Assembly: GCA_018693855.1 (NCBI GenBank)
Contig: JABHMO010000043.1
Location: 72,154 to 136,153 of the forward strand
Length of the DNA stretch: 64,000 nucleotides
Direction: 5' to 3'
From: Candidatus Falkowbacteria bacterium
GTDB taxonomy: Bacteria > Patescibacteriota > Patescibacteriia > UBA11705 > JABHMO01
Shown in pieces: positions 13,887-57,024 of the stretch. The first letter of the stretch is position 1. Every line of letters begins with the position of its first letter. A program made the translations under genes and the position numbers. The notes under the pieces were generated by a model. It made no database searches. It was not told the origin of the DNA and worked only from the letters and a program-made list of their open reading frames with translations.

Positions 13887-14171
13887 ATGGCACATAAAAA
13901 GGCAGGTGGAAGTACTAGTAATGGACGAGATTCCAATGCTCAACGGCTTGGTGTAAAAAGATACGGTGGACAAACTGTTGTATCTGGTAATATCTTGGTC
14001 CGACAACGAGGTACAAAATTTCACCCAGGTGAAAATGTAATGAAAGGTAAAGATGACACCCTTTTTGCAACTATCAACGGAATCGTTGAATTCACACATA
14101 AAAAAGTCAAAAAGTTCACTGGTAGATTAACCAAAAGAACTTTCATCAATATCGTTCCAGAAAAAAAATAA
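13887..14171 (+). CDS. rpmA: 50S ribosomal protein L27
   Basis: The protein begins [28 protein letters not shown]…[11 protein letters not shown], a clear L27 signature. Confidence 0.95.
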
Positions 14172-14183
14172 CTTCTTAAAAAA

Positions 14184-14212
14184 CTCAGCCGTAGGGCTGG
14201 GTTTTTTGTTTG
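14184..14212 (+). terminator. Intrinsic terminator after rpmA
   Basis: The hairpin CAGCCgtagGGCTG is followed by GGTTTTTTG. Confidence 0.65.
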
Positions 14213-14222
14213 ATGAATTTCA

Positions 14223-14876: not shown

Positions 14877-14893
14877 ATCTTTATTAATCAGTA

Positions 14894-14915
14894 CCCGAGA
14901 ATCCGCATTCTCGGG
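14894..14915. repeat. REP-like palindrome CCCGAGAATCCGCATTCTCGGG at the 5' end of the RAYT gene
   Basis: It is a perfect 9-bp-arm palindrome of the same family as the hairpins at 1061-1080, 4293-4316 and 14573-14594. Confidence 0.8.
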
Positions 14916-14949
14916 CACTGATTTGATTTTAATTATTATTAATTATAAC

Positions 14950-14979
14950 TAGGGACAACTTTGTCGTTGTCCCTAAATT
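14950..14979 (-). terminator. Hairpin terminator downstream of the 706-aa secreted protein gene
   Basis: It has perfect 10-bp arms, TAGGGACAAC/GTTGTCCCTA, followed by an AT-rich tract. Confidence 0.45.
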
Positions 14980-14997
14980 TTTGAATAAATTGTGTCA

Positions 14998-17118: not shown

Positions 17119-17147
17119 GATTTTTCTCCTGTTTGCGTATTGCTAGT

Positions 17148-17777
17148 TTAGAACGAGAAGTTCTGGATGAAGTCTTTGAAAACTTCTTGAGCTTGACCTT
17201 CGTCAACTCCATTCACATGGAGAGCGATGTCGTAGACAAACTCGCCTGATCGGATGAAGTATCTCGGATCACCAAGATAGACGGCGTTGTGAGATGTCGC
17301 TTGGACAGTCTCATTATCGGTCAAAAAACTCAGGTCAACGGTTTCAAAGCCGGTCACGCTATCAGGATAGTACTTCGCGAAGAAGTCATCCCAGCCCTCT
17401 GAGCTTTGAGTTACGTTAACATTGATCAGAGCGTAGTAATTGGTATACTTCTGTGAATTGATCTCACTCTTGCCACTGACTTCGATATAGTAGTCGTCAG
17501 GGGCAGAGCCACCTAGGACAACTTCTTTGTCAGTGTTTTTTACTAGTAAAGAGTAGATCAGCTCATCATTCTCACCATGACGTTGTGCCAACTCGACGAA
17601 CCAGCCGTCTGGGTAGTTGAACTCAAAATCATTTGCAGTGTAAGCAATCCAATCACCGGCTGTAGTAGGCTCGTTGTCTTGCTTGCCTTCTTCGTACCGA
17701 GTACACCCGGAGATGAAGAGAGCTGTAGCGATCACAACGGCTACGATCAAAAAGTTACGAAATTGAAATTTACGCAT
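17148..17777 (-). CDS. Hypothetical lipoprotein
   Basis: Its signal peptide ends in a lipobox (FISGC). The gene is GC-rich and an AAGGAG Shine-Dalgarno lies 9 nt upstream. The start was moved to the internal ATG. Confidence 0.5.
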   Translation of the reverse strand: MRKFQFRNFLIVAVVIATALFISGCTRYEEGKQDNEPTTAGDWIAYTANDFEFNYPDGWFVELAQRHGENDELIYSLLVKNTDKEVVLGGSAPDDYYIEVSGKSEINSQKYTNYYALINVNVTQSSEGWDDFFAKYYPDSVTGFETVDLSFLTDNETVQATSHNAVYLGDPRYFIRSGEFVYDIALHVNGVDEGQAQEVFKDFIQNFSF

Positions 17778-18042
17778 ATCGATTTTCTCCTTTTCGAGGT
17801 TTGTTAGAATGGGTCCTCGTTTTACCCTTAACATACTAACGTTAGCATGCTAAAACTGATTGTCAATGGACAAGAAGGCCACAGCCTTCGTTTCCTATTT
17901 CGATTAAACCACACAAAGATTATTTTCCCCACGAAAATGTTATCCACACTCGTCAGAATATAAAAAACAGCGATTTTACTAAGGGAAAATCGCGTTTTTC
18001 TTGTCGAGGTAGGTCGTCAAGATTTTAGAGTTAAATTATTAC

Positions 18043-29190: not shown

Positions 29191-29216
29191 AATATTTTAT
29201 TTTAAGTAAATATAAA

Positions 29217-30044
29217 TTATTGTTGTGCTTGAGCTTCAGCAAGAGCTCTTGAAAAGATAGATTTAAGGTCTTCATCAGAAACTTGATCCAAATCTGAATC
29301 ACTATAACCGTTCTGTCGTAACATTTCCCTTATTTGGTCTGCAGAATAGTTATATGGATCAACAACATCCGTACCAGTAGACAAATCCATATCCTGCATA
29401 GCATTAAACGCATCTGGATTTTCTTTTATTGCGGCTGTATAGAAAGCGACTAACTGTTCATCAGTAAATTGGTCAACTTGAGCTTGAGTCGCAACGCCAG
29501 ATTCTAGAATTAGAGCTCGGAGTGTATCAACAGGAGGAACAACTATTTCTTCATCGGGCACGTCCAGCAAACTGTCAGTTCCGCCCTCTCCACCATTTCC
29601 TGATCCAGAAAAACAGGTATATCCATCTGGACAGTTTGGATCTGTCCCTGCATAGATCTCTTCATAATCAGAAAGTCCATCACTATCACTATCAGCAAGA
29701 AACACGCTTGTTTCATAAACAAACTCTTCATCGTAATCATTTATTCCATCCGCGTCTGTATCTTTTTGCCGAAGAGCAATTGAATCTTCATTATCGTTTA
29801 ACAGTTCCTTAACATCAACTGCGTTATCACCTTTATTTTGAGCGACTTCAGCCAAAGGAACATTTAACAAAGCACTCATTCGAGCAAAACCAATCAAAAC
29901 TATGACAAATAAAATTATCACAAATCCAATAATAACTGTTTTGCGTCTTTTGTTATTTTTTTCTAATAGAGCCTGATCTTCTTCACTTACAACCACTTCG
30001 CCTTCGATCGGCTCTTGGTTTTCACCAGAGAATTCTTCATTCAT
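29217..30044 (-). CDS. Single-pass membrane protein with thrombospondin type-3-like Ca-binding repeats
   Basis: It has one TM helix and acidic DxDxDGxxDxxE repeats (DTDADGINDYDE, DSDSDGLSDYEE). It is paralogous to the genes at 44239-45435 and 45535-46119. Confidence 0.6.
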   Translation of the reverse strand: MNEEFSGENQEPIEGEVVVSEEDQALLEKNNKRRKTVIIGFVIILFVIVLIGFARMSALLNVPLAEVAQNKGDNAVDVKELLNDNEDSIALRQKDTDADGINDYDEEFVYETSVFLADSDSDGLSDYEEIYAGTDPNCPDGYTCFSGSGNGGEGGTDSLLDVPDEEIVVPPVDTLRALILESGVATQAQVDQFTDEQLVAFYTAAIKENPDAFNAMQDMDLSTGTDVVDPYNYSADQIREMLRQNGYSDSDLDQVSDEDLKSIFSRALAEAQAQQ

Positions 30045-44238: not shown

Positions 44239-45435
44239 CTAAGGGCACGCCGCAAACTCACAATCCGGCCCAGTCCTCCCAACAGAACTACCATCCGGAC
44301 AGATCTTAGCTTCCTCGGTACAAGCAATTACATTATCAATCGGTTCATCTGGCGCAACAGGTGCTTCAGCAAAGTCCCCTTCAATAAAGTTAAAACTATC
44401 AACCATCATCTTAAACATTGCAGGATAAAAAGCCTCTACTTTCTGACCAATTCCATAGTTGATAACGTAGACCATGTCTTGCTTTGCAATGAAAACAGTA
44501 AATCCATCCGGTGATTCAATAACTGGGATATCGTAATGATTGTTGTAAAATTTCAACTGAGTTCTAGTTGCTCGTGGATTCAACCGTAGATACCAATCAA
44601 CAATAGATTCTTCAGAATTCTTGTTCGCAATGAATACATTAACAAACTCATTATTACTTGAAGTAAACAGTACATCTTCAGTATCAAGAGGATCAAGTGA
44701 ATCAGCTAACCAACTTTTTGGATATAGAAGTTTATAACTGTACATTGTATTCTCATACTCTGCAACAAAATCACCTTCTTCTAACTTTACCATACTTTGA
44801 GTTGGACTGTAAAAATTCATTAACTCAGAACCATCAGCATAACCATCACCATCTGAATCAGCAATTGTTGCGTTTGTGTTAATTAAAAGTTCTTCCTGAT
44901 CAGTCAGACCATCATTATCACTATCAACTGATGCCATAACATTTACATTGAATCGATTTGCATAACTATAATCAAACTCTTTCGCAGGTACTAAATTATC
45001 AGGTAAAACATCATCAACTGGATCATCCGCTGGCTCCTCTGTATCTAATTCATCAGGTTGTGGTTCATCAGCATCATCTTGATCAACGACTGGATCAACT
45101 GTCTGAGGTTCGAAAACAACTTGATTTTGATTATCTTCACTAGAAGGTAAATATGTATAGACAAGTAATCCAATTGAAGCTAAAACTAAAATTGCTAGAA
45201 TTACCATGATAAGAATAACACCCAGTTTACTCTTCTTATGTTTAGGTGCGCCGTTAGAAGGTTTAGAAGCAGTTGCAGTCCCCTTTGATCCTTTTGTCGC
45301 AGAAACTGTTTTGTCCCCTAAATAATACTCCATGGGCATAGTATGAACTTGCTCATCTTGTGGAGATTTTTCTTGTTCTTCTTTAAGCGGTTTATTTACT
45401 TTATTGTCTAATTTTGGTTGTTCATCGTCAAACAT
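44239..45435 (-). CDS. Single-pass membrane protein with TSP3-like Ca-binding repeats and a C-terminal Cys-containing region
   Basis: It has a TM helix (GVILIMVILAILVLASIGLL), an acidic linker, and DSDNDGLTDQEE / DSDGDGYADGSE repeats. The start was moved to ATG 45433-45435 because the ORF-track N terminus is encoded by the 52-bp repeat element. Confidence 0.55.
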   Translation of the reverse strand: MFDDEQPKLDNKVNKPLKEEQEKSPQDEQVHTMPMEYYLGDKTVSATKGSKGTATASKPSNGAPKHKKSKLGVILIMVILAILVLASIGLLVYTYLPSSEDNQNQVVFEPQTVDPVVDQDDADEPQPDELDTEEPADDPVDDVLPDNLVPAKEFDYSYANRFNVNVMASVDSDNDGLTDQEELLINTNATIADSDGDGYADGSELMNFYSPTQSMVKLEEGDFVAEYENTMYSYKLLYPKSWLADSLDPLDTEDVLFTSSNNEFVNVFIANKNSEESIVDWYLRLNPRATRTQLKFYNNHYDIPVIESPDGFTVFIAKQDMVYVINYGIGQKVEAFYPAMFKMMVDSFNFIEGDFAEAPVAPDEPIDNVIACTEEAKICPDGSSVGRTGPDCEFAACP

Positions 45436-45522
45436 AGGAAAAGGGGCCAGCCCGCAATGTCTACGCATAGCGTTGCTGGCGGGGCTAAACGAGGCTATAC
45501 GAGGCTATAAAAGGCTTTCGGA
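45436..45522. repeat. Second copy of the 52-bp GC-rich core plus GAGGCTATA direct repeats, immediately upstream of the start codon
   Basis: The sequence GGGGCCAGCCCGCAATGTCTACGCATAGCGTTGCTGGCGGGGCTAAACGAGGCTATACGAGGCTATAAAAGGC is near-identical to 33140-33192. Confidence 0.75.
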
Positions 45523-45534
45523 TAGTCCTTGTAA

Positions 45535-46119
45535 TTAATTTATATTCAAATTGTCTTTAGCTTCTTGAAAATTCAATAACTTACCTGCCCCGTTGGGGTT
45601 GTATCCGGATTGAACCTCTTGTCCGTCAAGATAACCATCATTGTCACTATCTGTATCATTTGGATCTGTTTTATAAAACATAATCTCATCTCGATCAAAA
45701 AGTCCATCATTATCACTGTCAGCCTTGCGAGGATTTGTTTTATACTGTTTTTCTTCCTCGTTAGTTAATCCATCAAAATCAAAATCATCACCACTTGCTT
45801 CTTCAATCTGTTTTTTGACTTCATCAACATCTTCATTCATTCCTAAACCTTCAGTTTGATCAACCTGCGCTTCTTCATAGTCTTCTGGGACTGGAATATA
45901 CGTCTGATGATAAACTTTATTTCGATAATAAGCCAAAGCTCCTCCAGCAATTACAACTACTACTACAATAACAATAACAATCTTCCATGGAAACTTTTTC
46001 TTTTCTAAAACAGGTTCTGGACTAACATCCGAACTTTCAACTTGAGATTGTACTGGCGCTTCTTTCGGCCCAGCATCAACCTCATCAAAAATATCCTCAA
46101 CTTGTTTATCTTCATCCAT
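45535..46119 (-). CDS. Single-pass membrane protein with TSP3-like Ca-binding repeats
   Basis: It has a TM helix (WKIVIVIVVVVVIAGGALAYY) and DSDNDGLFDRDE / DSDNDGYLDGQE repeats. It is paralogous to 29217-30044 and 44239-45435. Confidence 0.6.
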   Translation of the reverse strand: MDEDKQVEDIFDEVDAGPKEAPVQSQVESSDVSPEPVLEKKKFPWKIVIVIVVVVVIAGGALAYYRNKVYHQTYIPVPEDYEEAQVDQTEGLGMNEDVDEVKKQIEEASGDDFDFDGLTNEEEKQYKTNPRKADSDNDGLFDRDEIMFYKTDPNDTDSDNDGYLDGQEVQSGYNPNGAGKLLNFQEAKDNLNIN

Positions 46120-46127
46120 ATATATTG

Positions 46128-46292
46128 ATGCTAATCTGCTAATGATATGCGAATGCCGCGAACGCTTCGCTATGCTAATTTACGAATTACACAAATAGTT
46201 AACTATTCGTAGTATTCGTGTAATTCGCAAATTAGCATCTCAGCAATTTTCGTATCATTCGCATGCTTTTCGTGGATTAGCATCGGTTTACT
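46128..46292. repeat. Copy 4 of the roughly 160-bp palindromic intergenic element
   Basis: It is near-identical to copies 1 and 2. It spans from 9 bp upstream of the TSP3 gene start to the TAA stop of the 2830-aa gene; the stop lies inside the element terminus …CATCGGTTTA, as also seen in copy 1 with nfu. Confidence 0.8.
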
Positions 46293-49200
46293 TATAAATA
46301 TAATCACAATCCCCACCACTAATACAAATATCACCAGTAGCTGTTTTTCTCTTTGGTAATACTCTGAATTCATTATAGAAACGGAACCCTTGCTTTTCAG
46401 TGTTGTAGCCAGCTGCATAACCATCTAAAGTGAAATCTATATTGTAAGCATTTGGTCCTAAAGCTTGATAATGATAAACAGGGTTATCTGAAATTATACT
46501 ATAAACAGTTGAATAGAACTCTGGTAAGTTTGCTCCAGTAACATCACTACTGTAACAAGTATACTTATCGTAATCATGATCACCGTCAGACGCGGCACTT
46601 GGACAGATTGAACACCACTGACCAGGTACAACACACTGTTTCTGACCTTGGCAATAAAGTTCAACTGAACCAGCACTTAAATCCTGACAGATCTCACCCT
46701 GCGGTGTTGGATTTGTTGTTGCTTGTTCCCAAACAAAATGATTATCAGGATCAACAGGCAACGCACCACCAAGCATACTACCAAAAACCCTTTGCCAACT
46801 TGGCCAAACACTAAACGTCTCCCCTCTTACATATGTACCACTTTCTAACTGAGGAACCTTATTACTATTTTGAGAACGATAACCATCAAGTAATAAATGA
46901 ACTAAATTAATATCTTGAACTCGTCGAATATCTTTCATGACTGACTGTTTCGCTGTTGTTCCAGTTGTACCTTCTGACAAGTTGTTAATATTAAACTTAA
47001 TCGTCTCAATCATTTGAGAGAAAATATTTTGCGTATTTGAATTTGCACCTGAATTATATCCGAGTAAGTAGATATTATTATAAAGAGTTCCTGTTGTTGA
47101 AATATTACCAGCTGCAATATAGACTGAGTTATCTTCTTTTCCACCTTGATAACAAAACTTGCCAGTTGAACTTTCTAAACAATCAATATCTAAAGATGAA
47201 ATATTACCAGCATTTGGTGCATATTTCATATACCATAACTCTGGAGCCAGTGCTTCAGGGTTTTCATATATTCGAAGAGAGATAACATCCTCTGATTCGT
47301 CAAAATTATCATCTAACGCAACGTCAGTTCGACTTAAGAAATACTGTGCAAGTAAAGCTGGCTCTTCCCAATTATCATTAGCGTCATTACACTTCGGATC
47401 TTCCAGATCACTTAATCCATTCAAATCATTATCAATACCATCTTGGCACTGTTTAATAACTTGATCAGGATTTGCAGGGGTTTTTTGTCCTGCTTCAACA
47501 AAATCACTAAATATATCAGTTGATAGTACTTTTAATTTAGGTAAATCATCATGTTCTCCAGCCATTAAACATTTTCCATTACCAATCTCCGAACAGTCAG
47601 TATCAGAACTACAAGATGTAACTCCATCAGAACAAACAAGTGGAGCTCGACATAGCTGATCACCAATACCAGCACAGTCAGCATCATCGTAACAAGCTTG
47701 ACCATTGTAACAACTTTTCACAAGTGGCTGACCTAAATCACGACAGTAGAAAAGACCAACATTATAAATTTTGTGATATAGATGAGTTAAGTATCCTGAA
47801 TCAGTACCATACATACTAAAATCACCACTGTAATCAGTTGGAGCCCAAAGTTTGCTGCAGATAAACACTTCTAGATTTGAGTAACCAGAAACTGATGCGC
47901 CGCCAGTACTACTATCACTAACAGTATCATCTGTTATAATAGTTTTTGCCTCAATCGCTGTTTGTCCATTTTTATTGAAACTAGCAACATTAACTTTACT
48001 TGGATCTTCTGTGTCCACATAAGAACCAACATTTGCGATTGAAGTATCTAAACTGTTCCATGCCCATTTCCAACTATAAACATTAGGAATGCTTTGAATT
48101 GGCTGATCATAGTTTTGAGCAATTGCTTGATACTCTGCATTCACATTAGGTTTTGTTACAAATCGATCAGCTGGATTGATATAAACATTGTTCACTCGGC
48201 AAATCTCATCACCAGTTGTAAAACTAGTTCCAATACTACTTGCTTTACCGCAAACATTTTCAATACTATTAAACTCTAAATTATATTTTGTATTTTCACC
48301 TAATAAATAATGAGGAACAACTAAAACCTCTGTATTTCCAAAAGAATTTTCCGTTACTGAGAAATTAAATCCAACATCACAACGTTTCGGAGCAGCTGCC
48401 CAACCACTTTTTACTAATAAATCACGAACAGTTAACTTGACTTTTTGGTATCCATTATAGATAGACTGTTTAACGGCTTTGACTGGATTTTTAGTAAACT
48501 TATAGTTTAAACTATTAACAGCCACACCATCGCCAGTTATTGATTGATAGTACTGTGTCATTTCGTCCTTTAATAAGAGCTGTTCAAAAACAGTAAACTC
48601 ATCAATTGCTCCATCAAACCCAGCCCAGTCAAGCTGAGGATTTTCCATTCTATTACCAATTGATAAATCATCTAAAGCAACTTTCGTAACTAATGAGAAA
48701 GTGCTTTTACTTTTTCCTTGTCCATCAATATTAACAAAAATATTACCTAGACCATCATAACTAATCATGATATGAGACCACACGTTTTCAGGAATTCTCA
48801 TACCTGAAAAATTATTTATTCGAGGATCACCTTTCTCGCCAGTTTTCAATAACAGTATGTTCCCCTTAAAGACAGCTAAACCAATTGATTCATTTGAGCC
48901 ATCAGCGGAAGCAGTGAATATAGTCTTTGGCTCAGCGGCAAGACTAGCAGGGTTTATCCAAGCACTAACTGTCCAAGGTTTAGCCTGACCAAATGAAGAA
49001 GTTGATGTTTTGACAACAGAATCTTGGCCATCGAATTCAAGAGCTTGTCCGACCTGTCCGTCAACAAACACTCCAGCTACGACTTCTGCTTGATTATTTA
49101 GAATTGAATCATAAGTAGACTGACCAGAGCCTTCATCAAAACCATAATGAGAGATCACAACAGGTAGATCAACCGGACAAGTTTCATTAGCTGGAATTTC

Positions 49201-52200
49201 TTTGGTTAATTTAAGACTATCTCTATTTAGACTAATAGGATTTATCTTGCCATCAAACGTAGCGTAAATTAGAGAGTTAGTACAAACATCTGTATCATTA
49301 TCAGTTGGTTTTATATCAGTTAATGTAACCTGAGGTAATAAACACTGTTGAGTTACATAACTTAACTCTGACGAACCAGTCACTTCGACAGCTTCTTCTA
49401 CTGCTTTTGCTTCGATATCAGTGTCTCCCTCGGTAAATAAAGATAAGTAGTTAAAATTGAACAAACAAGAACCACCACTAGTGAAACAAACATTTGCAGG
49501 ATCGGCAAGTAAAGTATTAATAGCAGGATTAACAGTTGCTGTTTGATACGGTCCAACATTAGTACCAGCCGCAGTATCACATTCAGGATCTTCACTGTTT
49601 TCAATCACGCCATTTCCACAAAGTTCTTGATTAGAACCAGTTTTTAGACATTTATTATTACAACCTTCAGGCATTGTACAAACACATCCATCATCTCCAT
49701 AAGAACAAGATTGACCATCCTTCACGCAGATTGCTTCACACTCTTCATCAATTCCAGCAACACCATCTAGATCTTGCAGAATACCATTACCACAACAAGG
49801 TGTTAAAGAATATCCAGGAACAGTACAGGTACAGTTTATTGGTACTTTTTCACTACATTCTATTGAAGTGTCTTCTTGACAGTATAGTTTATTTAATGAA
49901 CCACAAGTAGGGAACCCTTGCCAGACACAAGAAGCTGTACAGTATGGGTTTAAATCTTCACCAATTTTCGTATCACACTCTTCTCCTTCGTCAACCAGAC
50001 CATTACCACAAAGTTTGTCTGCATCTTCAAGATCAGCTTCATTATTACCAACAACTAAACAACTATTACTACAAAAATCCGGTTTAGCTGCGTTATATGT
50101 ACCCGCGGTTACAGTTGCGATTCTATCCTCTACACTACTCCAGTCCCAATCATACTGATACGCATTCAGAGGCTGACCTGTTGCACTACAGCTATCAGGA
50201 ACACTAAATGGAGTTGATACATAATCAACTGTTTGACCAGCTGTCTGAGAAACAAAATCAGATGGAGCAACTTCAACTCTATCAATTAGACATTTACCGT
50301 CCCCTTCCTTTGTTCTAAATGTCCAACTAAATGAATCTAATAACACCGTTTCACCACCTTCATAATCACCAGCCAATTCACAAGATTTATCTGGACTATA
50401 ATATGTATAATTTGTTCCTCTTAATAACGCAGCAAAATCATCTGTAAGTTCTAACAGTTCATCAGTTACTAAATTTTGACATTTGAAATCAATCGCTATC
50501 AACTCTTTACATTTTGCAGCTGCAGGATCTTTTGCGTAAGATTTGAATGAGTTACTATCAGAATCAAAACAACCACAAGCAAAATCAACTTTTTCATCAC
50601 CGTCAGCATCATAACCGCCTGTTTTATCAATCTTACCATTTTCATTATCATCTTCTCTGTTAGCACAGTCACCTGAACCACTTTGAGTACTGTAATTTAG
50701 CCCTGCTAGATTCTCACCACTCACACTTGTTACGTCGTCCATAACAATTGCTCGATAACTTGTATCTGGTGATAGATCTTGAGCTAAATTAATGTCTAAT
50801 CTATTTACATAATGGCCACTACCATCATTACTATATGTATAGTTAATATTTGCAGAATTTAAATTAACAGCTGTACCATAGGTCACACACTCTGAAGTTA
50901 CACATGGATACAGTTTTAGATTTGCAGGAGCCTCAACAGAGGTCGCATTCATCTTAGTATTGAAATGTGCTTGAATTTGAGTATTAATACATGCTGAATC
51001 ACATCGCGGAAAATAATTAACTACTTTCGGATCGATAAAATCGATCAATAAACCAGCATCTTTTGTTAAATTCTTAACAACAGTTCCAGTCGTTGTTTCA
51101 ACATTAACTGCAGCTGAGGTTCTAACTGTAATTGGATTAGATTTATCAGTTTGAATATCTGCTGATACTAGTCCATTCTGAATTAAATCTGATTTTATTT
51201 GATAGATACCAAAATCTTTACGAACAGTAACATACTCGCTCGCACTAATATATTTATCTACATCAAACGTACCAACAACTGGACAGATCTCATATTGATC
51301 TCCGTAAACTCGGCATAGATGTCCAAATAACTCTACCTTTGCTCGATCACTTTCAAAAGGCAACTGCCAATTCCAATCTTCATCACCTAAATTTAATATT
51401 TCACATTGATTTAATCCGCTAACTTTATAAATTTCTTGTTCATCAACTGTTTCGATCAAACCTTGAGCAGGAGTTATAGCAATGTCTGTTGGTAAACAGT
51501 CATCTGCTTTTGTTTTAAATTTCCAACGATAGCTGTTTGGCATTGTATAAACAGGATCTGTTCCACTCGCCGTAGCACCAGCCACACCAAACTCACCACC
51601 AAGGATCTCTACTTGATACCAAGTATTTCCAACTAAAGGAGTATCTATTTCTAATCGAGAAACAGTTTCACAAGTAGTGACATCATCAACATCAGTAGTA
51701 CAGATATTATCAGACAACTTATTTGCCGCTGTTAAAGTTGCATATTCGGTCGTAATACAGTCACCATCAGAACAGCTATCTAAATCACAGTTTGGAATAG
51801 ACTCCCCCGTTGTATCAGGAGTACTACACTGTTTTGTTTTTACTTTTACAACTTGACCAGTTTCTGTTGCCTGCGCTTCAAAACTTGGCCAAGACATTAC
51901 AGTATTAAAGGTCGCTGAAATTACTGAATTTTTACAAACAGTTCTTTTATTTTTCATCGGAGCTGGTGAAGCCATTAAATTATTTTCCGCGTCACAACTT
52001 CGTTCTATCACTTTTGGATATTTTGGTAATGCACCTGTACTCACCATCCAAGAAAACTCTGTTTCGCCAAAATCAGCGTCTTCACTACAACCTTCCACTA
52101 TATCTTTACAAATACCACTTGAACAACAGGTCTCACCTGTTAAACAACTGTTATTTGTACAGCTGCCAACTCGAAATCCTACCTGATTACTTACTGCATC

Positions 52201-54780
52201 AAGAGTATCTTCGTTGGCTAAATAAATATTTCCACTAAAATCAGTTTCAGAAACTTTTGCCCCAAGAATGCTTTCCTTCTGCCAATCATATCCTTGTTCT
52301 ACAGTTAAAAACGATTCAACCTTACCTCCATTTTCAAAAACAATATCGTAAACAGAATCATTCTCAAAATTTTCACCAAACAAATTGAAAACTGTATTAA
52401 CTGGACCATTATTTGGACTTAATTGACAGATACCTGGCCCTGGTTTTTCTGAATTGATTGTAAGGTTAATTGGAGCACTTTCTAAATTAGAAGAACTATA
52501 AACTCGAATCTGGATATCTTTTGTACCAGTTTCAATTGCAACTTCTTCTGGAATCTTCACAGAGATCTCACCATCCGTCCATCCTGATTCACCACAACTT
52601 AGTTCACCAACGTAGGCTCTATCAATATCAATAAAATCAACTCGACCTGCACTATTCCCAAAGTTTACACCTTTTAATGTGATTAACTGCTGTGCTGGAG
52701 CTGGATCTGGATTTACTGAATTGATCTGTGGTAGATTCGCAGGTGCTTCAATCTTAAATTTATATGGATTACTATAAATATCTCGACAGATACAGTCATC
52801 TACCTCATCACAAGTTGAAACTTCTGTACAAGCACAAGTCTCATCACCTATATTATCAATACAATCAGGACACGAGATACATTGTTCCCCTGCCTTTAAC
52901 ACAACAGTACTATAACCATTTGCTAAATTTGGTATTTGTAAATTTGTAATTGATACATTATCCCAAGCACCACCACCTTGCATTGAAGCAATGACTTGAT
53001 CAAAATATAAATCAGAGTCACCTCTACTATTACCGAAACCACTACCTTCTACATTAACTAAACCGGAAACTGGCCCTGCCGCACAATCGGTTTCACCTGA
53101 TTGTTGACACTCTTGCTCTGAGACAGCACAGATGCCGGGCATCTGCAGATTTTCATCATAAACAAAATCATCTTGCCAACCACGATCATTCTCAGTATCA
53201 TCGTACAGTTCGTATCGATTTATGATCTTAACTGGTCCAGTTATTACACCACTATCAGGAACTCTAACGATAATCTGATCATCTCGCCAAGAAGAGTTTG
53301 TATCACAACTAAACTCACCGGTCATATAACCTTCGGAACAGTTTTCACCACTTGAACATGAGAAGTAAACAGAACTAGTATCAGTTTTATAAGACGAGAA
53401 ACCATTTCCAACAATAGTTACAAGATTACCTGGTCCACCACGTGGTAAAACAACATTATCAATCGTTGGCAGGGTCTTGCACTGTCCCTCTAGACAAACT
53501 CCGGATGCACAGTCAGAATCCTGAGTACAACCACCACTACATGACGGGCAAGCAGGATTTGTACTTGAACAATCGATCTCCCCTAGTTCATCACAACAGT
53601 CTGACGGAACAATATTGAAATTTTTCTTTTTTATTTTTGTATGGTCAGCTAGGTCAACTGCTGCTGCCACAACTTTGTGGGAACCTAGTTCATAATCAGA
53701 ACTTTCTGGCCAAGGATCTGAATAAGTATAACTTGTAGGTGAATCATTTAAGACAACCTGATAAATAGTAGAGAAATCTTCCCATGAATCAGCGTCTGCT
53801 AGATCAACTTGGAAAAGTAACATTGATAATGCAACGTCGTCACTTCCAAAGATGGAAACGTCCATAGGAACAGCTGAGCCCTGACAGATACTAGTATTAT
53901 AAGAAGGGTTTTCTATTACAACAGAAGGATCTCTTTTGTCACAAACCGAACCAGTGTTGAATTCAGAGACACAGTCACTTATACCATTACAACTCAGAGT
54001 CAATTTTTCACCATCACGATCAGTTTGTATTGACTGTAATACGTTTGGAGTAACGGTAACTTTATATGCACTATCTTTATCAAAACAGTTTTGATCTTCA
54101 CAATCACTACATACCTTATCTGGCACAAATTTTACAATTCGATTTTCATTAAATAAGTTGAACTCACCAGGAACTTCCTCAAAAGTTCCGTCCACACTTT
54201 TTTCAACCTTAACATTATTCTCTATATCTGTAGCTGAGCTACTATCAAGTGGATAGTTGAACATTAACTTAACAGGGAAAGAGTATAGTACCGTATCGCC
54301 CTCTGGGACAAGGTCTACTTCCAAAGTTCGGAAACCTGATACAACTATCGTACCGTTTCCATTCCCATCACCATCACCTGATGAATTATAATTATTTGCA
54401 TCGAGTAAACTATCAAACACAAAAGCCGTTATAGCATACGCTGACAAAATTATTGCTAGACCTATAGCAGCTGAAATTAAAATCTTTTTCGCGTTACCAA
54501 TCTTCTCTTCACTACCGCCAGCTGTCATGTAGACGAAACCACCATACAGAACTAAGCCTATTGCTAAAACACCAAGAAAACCAAGTATAACTTTCAGTAT
54601 TCTTCCAATAATCGCTTTTGGATCTTCATTTCCAAGATCAGTCTGTTCCGCGACAGTATCCAACCCGTCTTGAATATTATTCTGAGCAAAAATAGGTTGA
54701 ACAGAGAGTAATACGAAAAATAAAGCGACAACTATAAAAATAGCACCAAATAATTTTTTGTTTTTAAGTTTGTTAAGCAT
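46288..54780 (-). CDS. Giant surface protein (2830 aa) with an N-terminal VirB2/TrbC-pilin-like two-TM module and a huge Cys-rich extracellular region
   Basis: It has a signal peptide, then two TM helices separated by a short loop (…VLYGGFVYMTAGGSEEKIGNAKKILISAAIGLAIILSAYAITAF…). This is followed by IPT/TIG-like segments (…GGPGNLVTIVGNGF…), a LamG/concanavalin-like segment (…WTVSAWINPASL…), and many CxxxxC clusters. Confidence 0.7.
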   Translation of the reverse strand: MLNKLKNKKLFGAIFIVVALFFVLLSVQPIFAQNNIQDGLDTVAEQTDLGNEDPKAIIGRILKVILGFLGVLAIGLVLYGGFVYMTAGGSEEKIGNAKKILISAAIGLAIILSAYAITAFVFDSLLDANNYNSSGDGDGNGNGTIVVSGFRTLEVDLVPEGDTVLYSFPVKLMFNYPLDSSSATDIENNVKVEKSVDGTFEEVPGEFNLFNENRIVKFVPDKVCSDCEDQNCFDKDSAYKVTVTPNVLQSIQTDRDGEKLTLSCNGISDCVSEFNTGSVCDKRDPSVVIENPSYNTSICQGSAVPMDVSIFGSDDVALSMLLFQVDLADADSWEDFSTIYQVVLNDSPTSYTYSDPWPESSDYELGSHKVVAAAVDLADHTKIKKKNFNIVPSDCCDELGEIDCSSTNPACPSCSGGCTQDSDCASGVCLEGQCKTLPTIDNVVLPRGGPGNLVTIVGNGFSSYKTDTSSVYFSCSSGENCSEGYMTGEFSCDTNSSWRDDQIIVRVPDSGVITGPVKIINRYELYDDTENDRGWQDDFVYDENLQMPGICAVSEQECQQSGETDCAAGPVSGLVNVEGSGFGNSRGDSDLYFDQVIASMQGGGAWDNVSITNLQIPNLANGYSTVVLKAGEQCISCPDCIDNIGDETCACTEVSTCDEVDDCICRDIYSNPYKFKIEAPANLPQINSVNPDPAPAQQLITLKGVNFGNSAGRVDFIDIDRAYVGELSCGESGWTDGEISVKIPEEVAIETGTKDIQIRVYSSSNLESAPINLTINSEKPGPGICQLSPNNGPVNTVFNLFGENFENDSVYDIVFENGGKVESFLTVEQGYDWQKESILGAKVSETDFSGNIYLANEDTLDAVSNQVGFRVGSCTNNSCLTGETCCSSGICKDIVEGCSEDADFGETEFSWMVSTGALPKYPKVIERSCDAENNLMASPAPMKNKRTVCKNSVISATFNTVMSWPSFEAQATETGQVVKVKTKQCSTPDTTGESIPNCDLDSCSDGDCITTEYATLTAANKLSDNICTTDVDDVTTCETVSRLEIDTPLVGNTWYQVEILGGEFGVAGATASGTDPVYTMPNSYRWKFKTKADDCLPTDIAITPAQGLIETVDEQEIYKVSGLNQCEILNLGDEDWNWQLPFESDRAKVELFGHLCRVYGDQYEICPVVGTFDVDKYISASEYVTVRKDFGIYQIKSDLIQNGLVSADIQTDKSNPITVRTSAAVNVETTTGTVVKNLTKDAGLLIDFIDPKVVNYFPRCDSACINTQIQAHFNTKMNATSVEAPANLKLYPCVTSECVTYGTAVNLNSANINYTYSNDGSGHYVNRLDINLAQDLSPDTSYRAIVMDDVTSVSGENLAGLNYSTQSGSGDCANREDDNENGKIDKTGGYDADGDEKVDFACGCFDSDSNSFKSYAKDPAAAKCKELIAIDFKCQNLVTDELLELTDDFAALLRGTNYTYYSPDKSCELAGDYEGGETVLLDSFSWTFRTKEGDGKCLIDRVEVAPSDFVSQTAGQTVDYVSTPFSVPDSCSATGQPLNAYQYDWDWSSVEDRIATVTAGTYNAAKPDFCSNSCLVVGNNEADLEDADKLCGNGLVDEGEECDTKIGEDLNPYCTASCVWQGFPTCGSLNKLYCQEDTSIECSEKVPINCTCTVPGYSLTPCCGNGILQDLDGVAGIDEECEAICVKDGQSCSYGDDGCVCTMPEGCNNKCLKTGSNQELCGNGVIENSEDPECDTAAGTNVGPYQTATVNPAINTLLADPANVCFTSGGSCLFNFNYLSLFTEGDTDIEAKAVEEAVEVTGSSELSYVTQQCLLPQVTLTDIKPTDNDTDVCTNSLIYATFDGKINPISLNRDSLKLTKEIPANETCPVDLPVVISHYGFDEGSGQSTYDSILNNQAEVVAGVFVDGQVGQALEFDGQDSVVKTSTSSFGQAKPWTVSAWINPASLAAEPKTIFTASADGSNESIGLAVFKGNILLLKTGEKGDPRINNFSGMRIPENVWSHIMISYDGLGNIFVNIDGQGKSKSTFSLVTKVALDDLSIGNRMENPQLDWAGFDGAIDEFTVFEQLLLKDEMTQYYQSITGDGVAVNSLNYKFTKNPVKAVKQSIYNGYQKVKLTVRDLLVKSGWAAAPKRCDVGFNFSVTENSFGNTEVLVVPHYLLGENTKYNLEFNSIENVCGKASSIGTSFTTGDEICRVNNVYINPADRFVTKPNVNAEYQAIAQNYDQPIQSIPNVYSWKWAWNSLDTSIANVGSYVDTEDPSKVNVASFNKNGQTAIEAKTIITDDTVSDSSTGGASVSGYSNLEVFICSKLWAPTDYSGDFSMYGTDSGYLTHLYHKIYNVGLFYCRDLGQPLVKSCYNGQACYDDADCAGIGDQLCRAPLVCSDGVTSCSSDTDCSEIGNGKCLMAGEHDDLPKLKVLSTDIFSDFVEAGQKTPANPDQVIKQCQDGIDNDLNGLSDLEDPKCNDANDNWEEPALLAQYFLSRTDVALDDNFDESEDVISLRIYENPEALAPELWYMKYAPNAGNISSLDIDCLESSTGKFCYQGGKEDNSVYIAAGNISTTGTLYNNIYLLGYNSGANSNTQNIFSQMIETIKFNINNLSEGTTGTTAKQSVMKDIRRVQDINLVHLLLDGYRSQNSNKVPQLESGTYVRGETFSVWPSWQRVFGSMLGGALPVDPDNHFVWEQATTNPTPQGEICQDLSAGSVELYCQGQKQCVVPGQWCSICPSAASDGDHDYDKYTCYSSDVTGANLPEFYSTVYSIISDNPVYHYQALGPNAYNIDFTLDGYAAGYNTEKQGFRFYNEFRVLPKRKTATGDICISGGDCDYIYK

Positions 54781-54890
54781 GGGAAATACTGTAAGTTTTT
54801 ACAAATTACGTATAATTGCAAATAAACAAATTAAGCTTCTACTTTACTAATTTGTACATTTGTAAGTATCTGTAATTAAAAAGATAAAGA

Positions 54891-56930
54891 CTATCGTCCT
54901 GGTAAGCTACATTCAGATACACCGGCTTGATCTTCAAGCTGGTAAGTGTCTCCAATGTAAACAGGGCAACACGAAGTACCACGATTATTCGCTGTTATAG
55001 AACCACAATCTGTATTTAAGTCTTCTTCTCTACTCGGATTAAAACAGTTTTGTCGCAAATCTTTGACCTGACTTTTTATAACTGGGAAATAGATAGGAAT
55101 AACAGGAGGGTCCGCAGTTTCAAGAGCGCTCGAGAAAGGGCCATGAGTAATAAATATCTTTTTCATATCAGTTACTTTGTTTCCGTCAGCATCAAGATTG
55201 TATCCCATATTAGGATCAACCCAAGCATCAAATGGCTCAGAACCAGATCTTTCACCATAAATTTTCACTTCCCTATCAACTGAGTATGGTTCCAGACTTT
55301 CATTAAACTCTGCTGCTAAAGTTTGATCTACCATAACTTGCTCTGTATTATGATCAGGACTCAAACCAATAATATACGGAGCATCTAAATCAACCTCAGC
55401 ACCTGTTTGGAAACTCCAATCGAAATTATCAAAAGCAGGACCGTCTGATGTACCATTGCTATCACCATCTAAAGAGTTTGACGAAGTATCAACAATTCCC
55501 GTACCAGGTGTTCCAGTATTTCCGTCACCGGTTAATTCAGCCGCCGTAATTAGATTGTCTATTAAAGAATTTTCAGGTAAACAGAAAGCTTTCTCACCAC
55601 AAGTGGTATAAGCTCCTGATGAACATTCCGTACTACTTAAAAACTGAACTGTTTTATATCCATTCAATCCGACTCGCCAATTACCAGGAACATGAGAAGT
55701 TGCGCAGGTTCCATTAGCTTCGCCTGAATTTAGTTTTACTTGAATTTCATTATCATCATCACCAGCGCTACAGTCTTGCAACTGTTCCAATGGTGGAATT
55801 ATCGGTTCACTAAAATTCACTACTATAATTTGATTAAGATAAACACCACCGTCCTCCCCTATCGTGTCATTTTTTATAGTAGCATCTATTCCAGCCTGAT
55901 CTAATGGAATAACTGACTCAACAACTGGTGGAGTCAAATCAAGAAAAGTGCCAGTTACAAAACGCCATTGATAGTCCTGACCAACCGAGAACACGCTATT
56001 TCCATCTGAATTAGTTATAGAGTTAGTTAAGTGAACAATATAAGCAACATCATCGGATTGAGAACCTAAATGCTCAGTTTGACTGTTGCCGTATGGATTG
56101 ATAACAATAGTTCGACGATCAGCTGTTAAGAAAGCATAAGTGTCTCCTGTAGAACCAAGGAAATCACTAGCTGGTGCATCTTCAATAATCAAATCAGCAC
56201 ACTGTCCAGGAGTACGATCAGTATCGTCAGTTGGCCAGTTTCCCATAGCATCACATCGAAATATTCTAATATTGTTTGTTTTTAAGGCTCCGCACATCTT
56301 TCCGTCACCAAGCAAAGCATCAGGACATCCGCTTGAATCAGATAAATCAATTACAGAATTTTCATCAATTGAATCTCTGAATGTAACCATTATCATTGTA
56401 TTTCTAGATACATCATCTTGTTCTGGTTCTGGATAATGACTCTGGATCACACTTCCAAAAGCGCCGCCAGAAAGACTATAACCTTGCGGTCCAATTCCAG
56501 CAATGTTAACTCCTCCACCACCGTCTCTATCACCTATTAAGGAATCAAATATAAAAGCTGTTATTGCATACGCACTTAAAATAATAACTAAACCAATTGC
56601 AGCGTTAATTAAAACTTTCTTTGCTTTATCAACTTTATCTTGTTGACCACCTGCGGTCATGTATAGGAATCCTCCGTACAGGACTAGAGATAAAGCAATC
56701 ACACCAAGGAATCCCATTATTGCTTTAATTATTCCACCAATAATTGAAGTTAAACTATTGGTTGGCAGGTCAGTCTGTTCAGCAATTGCATCAAGATCCT
56801 GATTAATTGTTTCCTGCAAGTCTCCTTGAGCCTGGACAACTGGAGCAAATAAAAAAACCGCCAATAAAAACACAAAACAACTGGCAGTTATTTTAATAAT
56901 TAACTGAAAATTTTTATCAGTTTTTTTCAT
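54891..56930 (-). CDS. Paralogous surface protein (about 680 aa) with the same N-terminal pilin-like two-TM module
   Basis: Its N-terminal 130 aa are about 70% identical to the 2830-aa protein (…IAEQTDL…GFLGVIALSLVLYGGFLYMTAGGQQDKVDKAKKVLINAAIGLVIILSAYAITAF…). The start is probably ATG 56928-56930; the ORF-track GTG start lies 3 bp upstream. Confidence 0.65.
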   Translation of the reverse strand: MKKTDKNFQLIIKITASCFVFLLAVFLFAPVVQAQGDLQETINQDLDAIAEQTDLPTNSLTSIIGGIIKAIMGFLGVIALSLVLYGGFLYMTAGGQQDKVDKAKKVLINAAIGLVIILSAYAITAFIFDSLIGDRDGGGGVNIAGIGPQGYSLSGGAFGSVIQSHYPEPEQDDVSRNTMIMVTFRDSIDENSVIDLSDSSGCPDALLGDGKMCGALKTNNIRIFRCDAMGNWPTDDTDRTPGQCADLIIEDAPASDFLGSTGDTYAFLTADRRTIVINPYGNSQTEHLGSQSDDVAYIVHLTNSITNSDGNSVFSVGQDYQWRFVTGTFLDLTPPVVESVIPLDQAGIDATIKNDTIGEDGGVYLNQIIVVNFSEPIIPPLEQLQDCSAGDDDNEIQVKLNSGEANGTCATSHVPGNWRVGLNGYKTVQFLSSTECSSGAYTTCGEKAFCLPENSLIDNLITAAELTGDGNTGTPGTGIVDTSSNSLDGDSNGTSDGPAFDNFDWSFQTGAEVDLDAPYIIGLSPDHNTEQVMVDQTLAAEFNESLEPYSVDREVKIYGERSGSEPFDAWVDPNMGYNLDADGNKVTDMKKIFITHGPFSSALETADPPVIPIYFPVIKSQVKDLRQNCFNPSREEDLNTDCGSITANNRGTSCCPVYIGDTYQLEDQAGVSECSLPGR

Positions 56931-57024
56931 CACCTCCAGGAATGAGTTAATACAGTTAATAAAGTTAAAATAGGTTAAACTAAATTAACAAAACATTAAC
57001 AATTTCACTCAAATATCAATTTTT

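What the first reader, a model, noticed from the sequence alone, without database searches (positions are those of the whole stretch)
44239..56933. Giant surface proteins that begin with a duplicated VirB2/TrbC-pilin-like module, clustered with TSP3-repeat membrane proteins
The 2830-aa and 680-aa proteins each start with a signal peptide, then two TM helices joined by a short loop; this is the topology and approximate sequence pattern of conjugative/T4SS pilins. After this module they continue into a very large Cys-rich ectodomain. The module is about 70% identical between the two proteins. Immediately downstream on the same strand lie two paralogous single-pass proteins with thrombospondin type-3 Ca-binding repeats (DxDxDGxxDxxE). 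A pilin-type membrane module fused to an adhesin-scale ectodomain is not a standard architecture. It may be a cell-surface attachment apparatus, plausible for an epibiotic small-genome bacterium. The whole five-gene block is co-directional with minimal spacers.
Basis: partly seen in the sequence, partly recalled or inferred. Interest (0 to 1): 0.8.

Follow-up and report, generated by a model that had tools for sequence, protein, structure and literature searches.

The report
Conjugative-type pilin anchors fused to giant surface proteins
In this ultra-small bacterium (Candidatus Falkowbacteria) and its relatives, a conserved four-gene block encodes two large surface proteins whose membrane anchors are true homologues of small secretion-system pilins, plus two calcium-binding membrane proteins; this fused architecture is common in nature but I found no description of it.

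Summary
The 679/680-aa and 2830-aa proteins each begin with a signal peptide and a two-helix hairpin. The hairpin scores above Pfam's cut-off for T4SS_pilin (PF18895) and is 30-48% identical to stand-alone 120-145-aa pilins. The two downstream proteins are single-pass membrane proteins with bacterial TSP3 repeats. Corrections: there are four genes, not five, and the spacers are 66-168 bp.

New here:
- The ~650-aa fusion is a large family: 557 clusters at E<=1e-30, and 141 of the top 149 carry the hairpin.
- The block lies in a fixed housekeeping context in nearly all 80 related genomes: signal peptidase, HisRS, S21, YqeY, ~650-aa pilin fusion, 2200-3500-aa pilin fusion, TSP3, TSP3, YbeY, DAGK, FtsA, FtsZ.
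- No VirB4 lies nearby.
- The fused hairpins have the same consensus and conservation as free pilins, and the two in one genome co-evolve.
- The smaller protein's ectodomain is a rod of Ig-like domains.

Best reading: these are modular VirB2-like pilins, the T4SS counterpart of modular type IV pilins, which display adhesin or scaffold modules on the cell surface. Whether they enter a pilus or stay in the membrane is not resolved. I rate it a new variant of a known kind, moderately high interest.

The parts
54891..56933 (-). Gene for the 679/680-aa modular pilin ('P680'). It comprises a signal peptide (about residues 1-34), a VirB2-like hairpin, a Gly-rich linker, four to five Ig-like (Big_5-type) domains and a Cys-containing tail.
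   Evidence: ORF. PF18895 34.7 bits and Big_5 40.9 bits. AF2 model pLDDT 79, pTM 0.72; residues 160-630 are all-beta, and linker 133-152 and tail 634-679 are low confidence. Foldseek top hits are S-layer protein SbsC and the Ig-like domains of LdtMt2. NCBI name is 'TrbC/VirB2 family protein'.
56532..56759 (-). Pilin hairpin of P680 (residues about 59-134): TM1, loop YMTAGGQQDKVDKAKK, TM2.
   Evidence: Pfam stretch 59-127. Hydrophobic segments 60-96 and 104-134. It is the most conserved part of the family: top-residue frequency 0.64 against 0.41 for the ectodomain.
46288..54780 (-). Gene for the 2830-aa giant modular pilin ('G2830'). It comprises a signal peptide, a VirB2-like hairpin and a Cys-rich ectodomain with IPT/TIG, Big_5 and LamG domains. 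It has no other TM segment.
   Evidence: ORF. PF18895 33.2 bits, Laminin_G_3 66 bits, Big_5 27 bits. TIG at residues about 438-474 and 684-774. 114 Cys, and TM segments only at the N-terminus. Orthologues of 2200-3500 aa are present in about 64 related loci and alignable over most of the length.
54397..54621 (-). Pilin hairpin of G2830 (residues about 54-128).
   Evidence: Pfam stretch 54-120. 73% identical to the P680 hairpin core. AF2 helices 54-86 and 91-132.
48562..49032 (-). LamG / concanavalin-A-like lectin domain of G2830 (residues 1917-2073). It is a lineage-specific insertion.
   Evidence: Laminin_G_3 E 5.6e-18. This region is covered by only about 2 of 64 giant orthologues.
45535..46119 (-). 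194-aa single-pass membrane protein: acidic cytoplasmic N-terminus, one TM segment, and three extracellular TSP3 Ca-binding repeats.
   Evidence: TSP3_bac 48.8 bits in 3 stretches. TM 40-67. Orthologues follow the giant in related loci.
44239..45468 (-). 409-aa single-pass membrane protein with TSP3 repeats, a PsbP-like domain and a C-terminal Cys motif.
   Evidence: TSP3_bac 28.2 bits. TM 77-110. The PsbP hit is weak: 19.7 bits, below cut-off. Orthologues are present in related loci.

Best explanation
What it is (high confidence). This is a conserved four-gene cell-envelope module of Falkowbacteria and related Patescibacteria. It encodes two 'modular VirB2-like pilins' and two Ca-binding single-pass membrane proteins.

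How it most likely works (inferred).
1. Both large proteins are exported by Sec and cut by signal peptidase I.
2. The PF18895 hairpin sits in the membrane. Its Lys-rich loop faces the cytoplasm and both ends face outward.
3. The C-terminal ectodomain therefore lies outside the cell on a flexible Gly-rich linker. In P680 it is an Ig-like rod; in the giant it is a roughly 2700-aa Cys-rich TIG/Big_5/LamG array.
4. The fused hairpins keep the same sequence constraints as the free pilins, and the two in one genome co-evolve. I therefore infer that the hairpin is a working pilin module, not only an anchor.
5. On this reading the hairpins associate with each other and with the short pilins encoded elsewhere in these genomes. 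They are handled by the same (T4SS-type) pilin machinery. The ectodomains would then be presented at the tip, base or side of a short pilus or stalk.
6. This would supply the adhesin or tip function that Patescibacteria T4SSs otherwise lack, since no VirB5 or PrgB has been found.
7. The TSP3 proteins would act as Ca-dependent membrane partners of the giant ectodomain.

The logic is that of modular type IV pilins, applied to a conjugative-type pilin.
For: Shown:
- PF18895 is above cut-off in both proteins.
- The hairpins are 30-48% identical to stand-alone pilins, with the invariant loop.
- The hairpin consensus is the same in 77 P-type, 69 G-type and 62 free pilins, with equal conservation (0.62-0.64). 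It is the best-conserved part of P680.
- Within-genome P-G hairpin identity is 0.62, against 0.50-0.52 for all between-genome classes. The genome's own G is the best G partner in 26 of 65 genomes; permutation 0 of 10000.
- The linker is disordered and the ectodomain is an Ig-like rod.
- One relative (GCA_964485795.1) carries both this block (L020) and an array of 16 short PF18895 pilins (L091). One array member is as close to the P and G hairpins (56%) as these are to each other.
- The block is conserved in essentially all 80 related loci.

From the literature:
- In all solved conjugative pili the charged loop lines the lumen and both termini are on the outside (bioRxiv 10.64898/2025.12.18.695078). 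A C-terminal module is therefore topologically displayable.
- Patescibacteria T4SSs have VirB2-like pilin arrays, which are essential in S. epibionticum. No PrgB-type adhesin was detected (PMC12102498, PMC10633639, PMC12857230).
- Modular type IV pilins with LamG or vWA modules are an established precedent (PMC8179133).
Against: - No VirB4, VirB6 or VirD4 lies in the 64-kb window or in about 10 kb beyond each end. The context is housekeeping.
- No pilus made of PF18895 proteins has been observed experimentally.
- A 550-2700-aa folded domain on a pilin would be hard to pack into a helical pilus or pass through the wall, except at a tip or at low frequency.
- P680 and the giant evolve only moderately faster than housekeeping genes (31% and 26% identity where HisRS is at 40%). 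That fits a structural envelope component as well as an adhesin.
- Fold searches of the hairpin are non-discriminating.
- The free-pilin comparison set was chosen by similarity to the query, so equal conservation is partly built in.
- I could not show that this genome encodes a T4SS.
Confidence: 0.45

Rival explanations
1. Static surface layer or fibril. The hairpin serves only as a membrane anchor, possibly an oligomerising one. The Ig-like rod protein and the giant form a permanent envelope scaffold: an S-layer-like canopy with a stalk, or surface spikes. The TSP3 proteins stabilise it with Ca2+. The T4SS is not involved.
For: - The block has an almost invariant position among housekeeping and division genes, with no T4SS gene nearby.
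- Sequence divergence is moderate and orthologues align over the full length.
- The domains are Big_5 (SbsA-type), and the top structural match is the S-layer protein SbsC.
- A second, unrelated giant in the window that lacks a pilin hairpin is also paired with a TSP3 single-pass protein, and that pair recurs in L100. This suggests a general 'giant surface protein plus TSP3 partner' theme.
Against: - A plain anchor would not need the pilin-specific loop and Gly positions. These are kept as strongly as in free pilins over class-level divergence.
- The two hairpins co-evolve within genomes.
- No SLH or other wall-binding domain was found.
Confidence: 0.35
2. Host-specific attachment adhesins. 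The ectodomains bind the host cell surface of an epibiotic lifestyle, and host range is set by variable modules. This is independent of how the proteins are anchored.
For: - Lectin-type LamG, TIG and Ig-like domains are present.
- The LamG segment and other stretches (residues about 1300-1500, 1800-2200 and 2700-2830) are lineage-specific.
- Patescibacteria are generally host-dependent (PMC10633639).
Against: - Most of the giant and all of P680 are conserved orthologously across several candidate phyla-level groups: Falkow-, Magasanik-, Uhr- and Komeilibacteria. That is unusual for receptors that track diverse hosts.
- There is no experimental host link for this lineage.
- This reading overlaps with the other two and is about function, not mechanism.
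Confidence: 0.15
3. Artefact or chance. The hairpin is an ordinary signal-anchor, or the giant ORFs are assembly or annotation artefacts.
For: Fold searches return only generic helical hairpins. PF04956 is below cut-off.
Against: - PF18895 is above cut-off with E about 1e-8, and the module is up to 48% identical to free pilins.
- Identical proteins occur on 13-17 independent contigs from several assemblies.
- The architecture recurs in more than 60 species-level genomes.
Confidence: 0.02

Closest known systems
Patescibacteria VirB2-like pilins (Pfam PF18895 T4SS_pilin), including the pilin arrays in or near T4SS loci, essential in Southlakia epibionticum (PMC10633639, PMC12102498)
   Same: The signal peptide plus two-helix hairpin has the same consensus (..LG.LG.ia....lYgGF.WMTAGG..ekv.kAKk.l...IGL.IILSAYAIt.Fv). 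It scores above the family cut-off. Relatives carry arrays of the short form in the same genome.
   Different: These proteins are 679 and 2830 aa instead of about 110-150 aa, with a linker and a large ectodomain at the C-terminus. They sit in a fixed housekeeping locus far from any virB4. The papers read here screened for or discussed small pilins only, and none mentions such fusions.
Canonical conjugative pilins TrbC/VirB2/TraA (PF04956) of Gram-negative T4SSs, and PrgF-type VirB2-like proteins of Gram-positive plasmids
   Same: The topology is the same: a leader, two TM helices and a short charged cytoplasmic loop. A profile-profile alignment to real VirB2/TrbC sequences is in register over the hairpin (72% probability, E 3.3e-5).
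   Different: PF04956 is below cut-off. There is no adjacent virB3 or virB4. Nothing suggests cyclisation or acetylation. The giant C-terminal extension is unknown for this family.
Modular type IV pilins, e.g. Streptococcus sanguinis PilB (vWA) and PilC (LamG), and CofB, TcpB and GspK (PMC8179133)
   Same: The design logic is the same: a small N-terminal pilin 'carrier' module, a short flexible linker, and bulky adhesin or lectin modules (including PF13385 LamG). These proteins are proposed to sit at the filament tip, and are common in Patescibacteria.
   Different: The pilin superfamily and machinery are unrelated. Type IV pilins have a class III signal peptide with the G|FxxxE motif and a single N-terminal helix, and they are assembled by PilB/PilC-type machines. 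Here there is a Sec/SPase I signal and a two-helix VirB2-type hairpin.
VirB5/TraC-type pilus-tip adhesins and PrgB-type surface adhesins of T4SSs
   Same: They fill the proposed role: presenting an adhesive module at the distal end of a T4SS structure. Patescibacteria lack recognisable VirB5 and PrgB (PMC12102498).
   Different: There is no sequence or fold relationship. VirB5 is not a pilin homologue, and PrgB is sortase-anchored to the wall.
S-layer proteins with Big_5/SbsA-type Ig-like domains (SbsC, 4uic), and two-component archaeal S-layers with a membrane-anchored stalk
   Same: The ectodomain is an elongated chain of Ig-like domains. A large protein and a smaller membrane-anchored protein are encoded side by side. 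Ca-binding partners are present.
   Different: There is no SLH or wall-polymer-binding domain. The anchor is an N-terminal pilin hairpin. Lattice formation is untested.

Membership tests
Pfam PF18895 T4SS_pilin (Patescibacteria VirB2-like pilins) | Profile score at or above the gathering threshold | tested here: met
   33.2 bits (G2830, residues 54-120) and 34.7 bits (P680, residues 59-127) against a cut-off of 26.6. Precomputed Pfam on public copies agrees.
Pfam PF18895 T4SS_pilin (Patescibacteria VirB2-like pilins) | Cleavable signal peptide, then two TM helices joined by a short charged loop, with both ends outside | tested here: met
   Hydrophobicity segments. AF2 helices 7-31, 54-86 and 91-132. 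The loop MTAGGxxxKxxxAKK is Lys-rich. The cleavage site was read by eye only.
Pfam PF18895 T4SS_pilin (Patescibacteria VirB2-like pilins) | Small protein (about 100-150 aa) consisting of the hairpin only | tested here: not met
   679 and 2830 aa. The closest free pilins are 113-147 aa.
Pfam PF18895 T4SS_pilin (Patescibacteria VirB2-like pilins) | Encoded in or near a T4SS cluster (virB4, virB6, virB3) | tested here: not met
   No such gene lies in the 64-kb window or about 10 kb beyond either end, nor in the +-10 kb flanks as annotated against the window's genes. The literature finds only 1135 of 1948 assemblies with a pilin near virB4 (PMC12102498), so this feature is not strict.
Pfam PF18895 T4SS_pilin (Patescibacteria VirB2-like pilins) | Polymerises into an extracellular pilus | not testable with these tools
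   This needs multimer modelling or microscopy. It has not been shown for any PF18895 protein in the papers read.
TrbC/VirB2 conjugative pilins (PF04956) | Profile score at or above the gathering threshold | tested here: not met
   G2830 scores 14.2 bits against 27.9 (E 0.052), although colinear over profile positions 6-96 of 98. P680 has no hit. Some close free homologues carry both PF18895 and PF04956.
TrbC/VirB2 conjugative pilins (PF04956) | Remote homology to authentic VirB2/TrbC sequences | tested here: inconclusive
   hhalign of A1 against an alignment of 7 VirB2/TrbC proteins gives 72% probability, E 3.3e-5, over 58 columns of the hairpin in register. TM composition may inflate the score. 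PDB sequence search found nothing.
TrbC/VirB2 conjugative pilins (PF04956) | Fold match to solved pilins (TraA, VirB2, TrwL) | tested here: inconclusive
NCBIfam NF045849 (Mbov_0395 pilin-like conjugal transfer protein of mycoplasma ICEs) | Score at or above the curated cut-off (40 bits) | tested here: not met
   38.1 bits (P680) and 26.8 bits (G2830). These are related proteins, not members.
Modular type IV pilins (IPR012902 N-terminal module) | Class III signal peptide with the prepilin-peptidase motif G|F/M-xxxE and a single hydrophobic N-terminal helix | tested here: not met
   The N-termini read MKKTDKNFQLIIKITASCFVFLLAVFLFAPVVQAQ... and MLNKLKNKKLFGAIFIVVALFFVLLSVQPIFAQ.... Neither has the motif, and no T4P pilin family appears in the Pfam or NCBIfam scans. 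The resemblance is in function only.
Bacterial TSP3 repeat proteins (PF18884) | Profile score at or above cut-off, with DxDxDGxxDxxE repeats | tested here: met
   48.8 bits in 3 stretches for the 194-aa protein and 28.2 bits for the 409-aa protein, against a cut-off of 25. The repeats are visible in the sequence.
S-layer proteins of monoderm bacteria | Ig-like Big_5 domains plus a wall-anchoring module (SLH or equivalent) and lattice formation | tested here: inconclusive
   Big_5 is present and SbsC is the top fold match. No SLH or other wall-binding domain was found. Lattice formation is not testable here.

The most novel reading that the evidence does not exclude
These are the first recognised 'modular conjugative-type pilins'. 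On this reading, a whole class-level lineage of Patescibacteria builds its host- or surface-contact organelle by fusing VirB2-like hairpins to an Ig-like rod and to a roughly 2700-aa lectin-bearing giant. The two hairpins co-assemble on the T4SS platform as the tip complex, a VirB5 substitute, of a pilus made from the short pilins encoded in separate arrays. The TSP3 proteins act as Ca-dependent accessory factors.
Probability: 0.3. Interest if true: 0.8.

Novelty: new variant of a known kind. Interest (0 to 1): 0.62.

Why it matters
VirB2-like pilins in monoderm bacteria and in Patescibacteria are a recent and still open topic. They are essential in the one genetically tractable species. No pilus made of them has been seen, and no adhesin has been assigned to these T4SSs.

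A conserved pair of pilin hairpins carrying large ectodomains gives concrete candidates for the missing contact or adhesin component. It also gives a testable prediction: co-assembly with VirB6-like proteins and short pilins. Finally, it is a warning that size-filtered pilin screens (50-150 aa) and domain-only annotation ('TrbC/VirB2 family protein') hide a major architecture.

If the proteins instead form a static envelope layer, they would be candidates for the unidentified surface layer of these ultra-small cells.

Tried and rejected
2. The afdb50 fold library was not available.
3. Word-indexed homologue searches were uninformative. The giant's C-terminal 630 aa and the N-terminus of the second giant gave 2 and 1 hits. 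The search with the hairpin alone returned only short proteins and missed the query proteins themselves, so it says nothing about the length distribution. The exhaustive search was used for that instead.
4. Promoter and terminator scan of the block: counts were at or below shuffled expectation, so there is no operon evidence either way.
5. Replication origin near 61 kb, which would have meant high gene dosage. The GC-skew change follows the gene strand switch, and DnaA-box-like matches are at chance level (20 against 21.6 expected) with no cluster. Rejected.
6. Recent gene conversion between the two hairpins in this genome. Third-codon-position identity is only 0.47, and 25 of 51 identical-residue codons are identical. 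The within-genome similarity is therefore maintained at protein level or stems from old conversion.
7. Relation between the two giants in the window: none beyond a short Cys-rich stretch (E 9e-4).
8. Pam pili of Saccharibacteria (bioRxiv 10.64898/2026.03.03.709456) are a different system: Ig-like pilins assembled by donor-strand exchange, with no hairpin.
9. The exact-sequence look-up of the 680-aa GTG-start product failed. The ATG-start 679-aa product is the one on record.

Full report
**Organism and setting.** The window is AT-rich (about 36% GC). It has no tRNA or Rfam hit. Identical proteins occur on 13-17 public contigs, including NCBI MAGs named Candidatus Falkowbacteria bacterium (GCA_018656425.1 and a 147.6-kb contig) and marine metagenomes. 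Every other gene scanned in the window is housekeeping or envelope-related. The list includes GatB, MiaA, MraY, MurD, FtsW, IscS/NifU, KsgA, RF, HtrA, NrdD/NrdG, FtsZ, FtsA, DAGK, YbeY, YqeY, S21, HisRS, signal peptidase, LytR and Der. No VirB4-, VirB6- or VirD4-like gene is present in the window or in the roughly 10 kb beyond each end that public gene calls cover.

**Check of the observation.** Four co-directional minus-strand genes fill 44239-56933, encoding proteins of 680 aa (679 from the ATG), 2830, 194 and 409 aa. There are four, not five.
- Both large proteins match Pfam T4SS_pilin (PF18895) above the gathering threshold: 34.7 and 33.2 bits against 26.6.
- Both are just below the cut-off of the mycoplasma ICE pilin-like family NF045849.
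- TrbC/VirB2 (PF04956) is only a weak, colinear hit for the giant: 14.2 bits.
- The topology is a signal segment and then two helices joined by the loop YMTAGGxxxKxxxAKK.
- The two hairpin cores are 73% identical (51 of 70), and 55% over 130 aa. Outside the module the two proteins are unrelated.
- The giant has 114 Cys and no further TM segment.
- Its domains are IPT/TIG at residues about 438-474 and 684-774, Big_5 at 1250-1361, and a LamG lectin domain at 1917-2073.
- The 194-aa and 409-aa proteins are single-pass membrane proteins with TSP3_bac repeats above cut-off.

**The module is a true pilin homologue.** Aligned with 16 stand-alone PF18895 proteins of 113-147 aa, the two modules are 30-48% identical, with invariant G81, F82, G88, G89, G107, I110 and I117. 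A profile of this alignment aligns in register with authentic VirB2/TrbC proteins: hhalign gives 72% probability, E 3.3e-5. That supports remote homology without proving it. Fold searches of the AF2 hairpin model cannot discriminate, because a helical hairpin matches thousands of structures. NCBI's pipeline already names the 679-aa protein 'TrbC/VirB2 family protein'. It leaves the full-length giant as hypothetical.

**The fusion is widespread, not a curiosity.** An exhaustive HMMER scan of 1.84 billion cluster representatives with the 679-aa protein gave 557 proteins at E<=1e-30. Of the 149 best hits other than the query itself, 141 carry the N-terminal hairpin; most of the rest are N-terminally truncated fragments or long proteins matched in many short stretches. 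Typical length is 550-760 aa.

A scan of one genome per species returned 80 loci (from at least 581 matches). They come from Falkow-, Magasanik-, Uhr- and Komeilibacteria and unnamed Patescibacteria. Many records titled 'uncultured Gammaproteobacteria' are evidently mislabelled.

My ORF calling and BLAST against the window's genes show an almost invariant order:
- signal peptidase (63 of 78 loci), HisRS (66), S21 (58), YqeY (55);
- the ~650-aa pilin fusion;
- a second pilin-bearing ORF directly downstream, in 72 of 78 loci. Four of the other six end at the contig edge. The 40 of these ORFs that end inside their locus have a median length of about 3000 aa;
- one or two TSP3 single-pass proteins, in 21 of 29 loci with enough sequence;
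- YbeY, DAGK, FtsA and FtsZ.

**Evolutionary behaviour.** P680 aligns over its full length to its orthologues at a median 31% identity, where HisRS and YqeY are at 40-41%. The giant is at about 26%, and its top HSPs cover 40-60% of its length. Most of the giant (residues 1-1300, 1500-1700, 2200-2300 and 2500-2700) is shared by 50-60 of 64 orthologues. The LamG region and some other segments are lineage-specific.

Within P680 the hairpin is the best-conserved part: top-residue frequency 0.64, against 0.41 for the ectodomain. The consensus and conservation of the hairpin cannot be told apart in P-type fusions, giants and free pilins. One caveat applies: the free pilins were selected by similarity to the query.

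Hairpins of the two fusions in the same genome are more alike (mean 0.62) than any between-genome class: P-P 0.51, G-G 0.52, P-G 0.50. The genome's own giant is the best-matching giant hairpin in 26 of 65 genomes and ranks in the top three in 41; permutation gives 0 of 10000. After an ancient duplication, all P-G pairs should be equally distant. The excess therefore indicates co-evolution or past gene conversion. In this genome there is no recent conversion tract, since third-position identity is 0.47.

**Structure of the smaller fusion.** AF2 with 33 homologues gives pLDDT 79 and pTM 0.72. The model has the hairpin, a disordered Gly-rich linker (133-152), an all-beta ectodomain (160-630, mostly pLDDT > 90) and a low-confidence Cys-bearing tail. 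Foldseek matches the S-layer protein SbsC and the Ig-like domains of LdtMt2. The ectodomain is thus a chain of Ig-like domains.

**Free pilins in the same lineage.** In GCA_964485795.1 the block (L020) co-exists with an array of 16 tandem short PF18895 genes on another contig (L091). The array includes a 427-aa protein made of four tandem hairpins and has no VirB4 within 10 kb. One array member is 56% identical to both fused hairpins, the same as these are to each other.

**Literature.**
- Patescibacteria T4SSs are related to monoderm conjugation systems. They usually lack relaxase and a PrgB-type adhesin. They carry VirB2-like pilins, often in arrays of 2-11 (PMC12102498).
- The pilin array is essential in Southlakia epibionticum (PMC10633639), and whether a pilus is made is still open (PMC12857230).
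- In solved conjugative pili both pilin termini are outside and the loop lines the lumen (bioRxiv 10.64898/2025.12.18.695078). That screen considered only proteins of 50-150 aa.
- Modular type IV pilins, some with LamG modules, are an established analogue in an unrelated pilin family (PMC8179133).
- None of the papers found by seven full-text searches describes a VirB2-type hairpin fused to a large ectodomain. Absence from this library does not prove that no description exists.

**Interpretation.**
- Shown: a conserved four-gene envelope module. Two of its surface proteins are anchored by genuine PF18895 hairpins that remain under pilin-like constraint and co-evolve.
- Inferred: the hairpin is a functional pilin module. 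It lets the Ig-like rod and the giant be handled by the pilin machinery and displayed at the tip or base of a short pilus or stalk (confidence about 0.45).
- Main rival (about 0.35): a static, membrane-anchored surface layer or fibril in which the hairpin merely anchors or oligomerises. The housekeeping context, the moderate evolutionary rate, the S-layer-like domains and the absence of nearby T4SS genes favour it.
- A host-specific adhesin role (about 0.15) is compatible with either mechanism. The broad conservation gives it only weak support.
- The TSP3 proteins are probably Ca-dependent partners. A second, unrelated giant in the window is also paired with a TSP3 single-pass protein, and that pair recurs in L100.

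**Verdict.** This is a new variant of a known kind, the Patescibacteria VirB2-like pilins, and it parallels the modular type IV pilins. Interest is moderately high.

Noticed in passing
window 19660-30044 (-); L100:362-4165: A second giant gene (19660-29190) encodes a 3176-aa protein with a signal peptide, 121 Cys, no Pfam hit and no pilin hairpin. It is directly preceded by another single-pass TSP3_bac protein (29217-30044, 275 aa). A 37%-identical homologue of the giant in L100 is also preceded by an orthologous 288-aa TSP3 single-pass protein. 'TSP3 membrane protein plus giant surface protein' therefore looks like a recurring pair.
   Followed up: partly
window 12894-17834: There is a GC spike (0.45 against about 0.36) over a 706-aa protein with a Peptidase_C39-like domain and a MopE metal-binding motif (14998-17118). 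Next to it lie an IS200-like Y1 transposase (14223-14918), a second C39-like protein (12894-13730) and a PsbP_2 protein (17148-17834). This may be acquired DNA.
   Followed up: no
L091:8339-17587 (GCA_964485795.1, the same MAG as L020): An array of 16 tandem PF18895 pilin genes of 109-225 aa, plus a 427-aa protein that consists of four tandem pilin hairpins. No VirB4 lies within 10 kb. Pilin-module multiplication thus occurs both between genes and within one polypeptide.
   Followed up: partly
L011, L012, L014, L019, L020 and many others: Dozens of public MAG records titled 'uncultured Gammaproteobacteria bacterium' (binchicken co-assemblies), and single ones titled Udaeobacter or Kapaibacterium, carry this Patescibacteria-specific syntenic block. 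The organism labels are almost certainly wrong.
   Followed up: no
window 44239-45468 (-), residues about 236-409 of the 409-aa protein: After its TSP3 repeats, the 409-aa protein has a weak PsbP-like domain (19.7 bits, below cut-off) and a C-terminal motif CxxxxxxCPDGSxVxRxGPDCEFxxCP. A related 'DPNCPDGYTCF' motif occurs in the 275-aa TSP3 protein and its L100 orthologue.
   Followed up: no
window 9752-60664: Nearly every gene across about 50 kb lies on the minus strand, with matching negative GC skew. The orientation and skew switch at about 60.7-61 kb. No DnaA-box cluster was found, so this is not evidence for an origin.
   Followed up: yes
L078:6015-8018, L088:9992-11788: In two related loci a 600-670-aa open frame runs antisense to the P680-like gene and displaced it in my greedy ORF calling. 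It is probably a chance antisense ORF.
   Followed up: no
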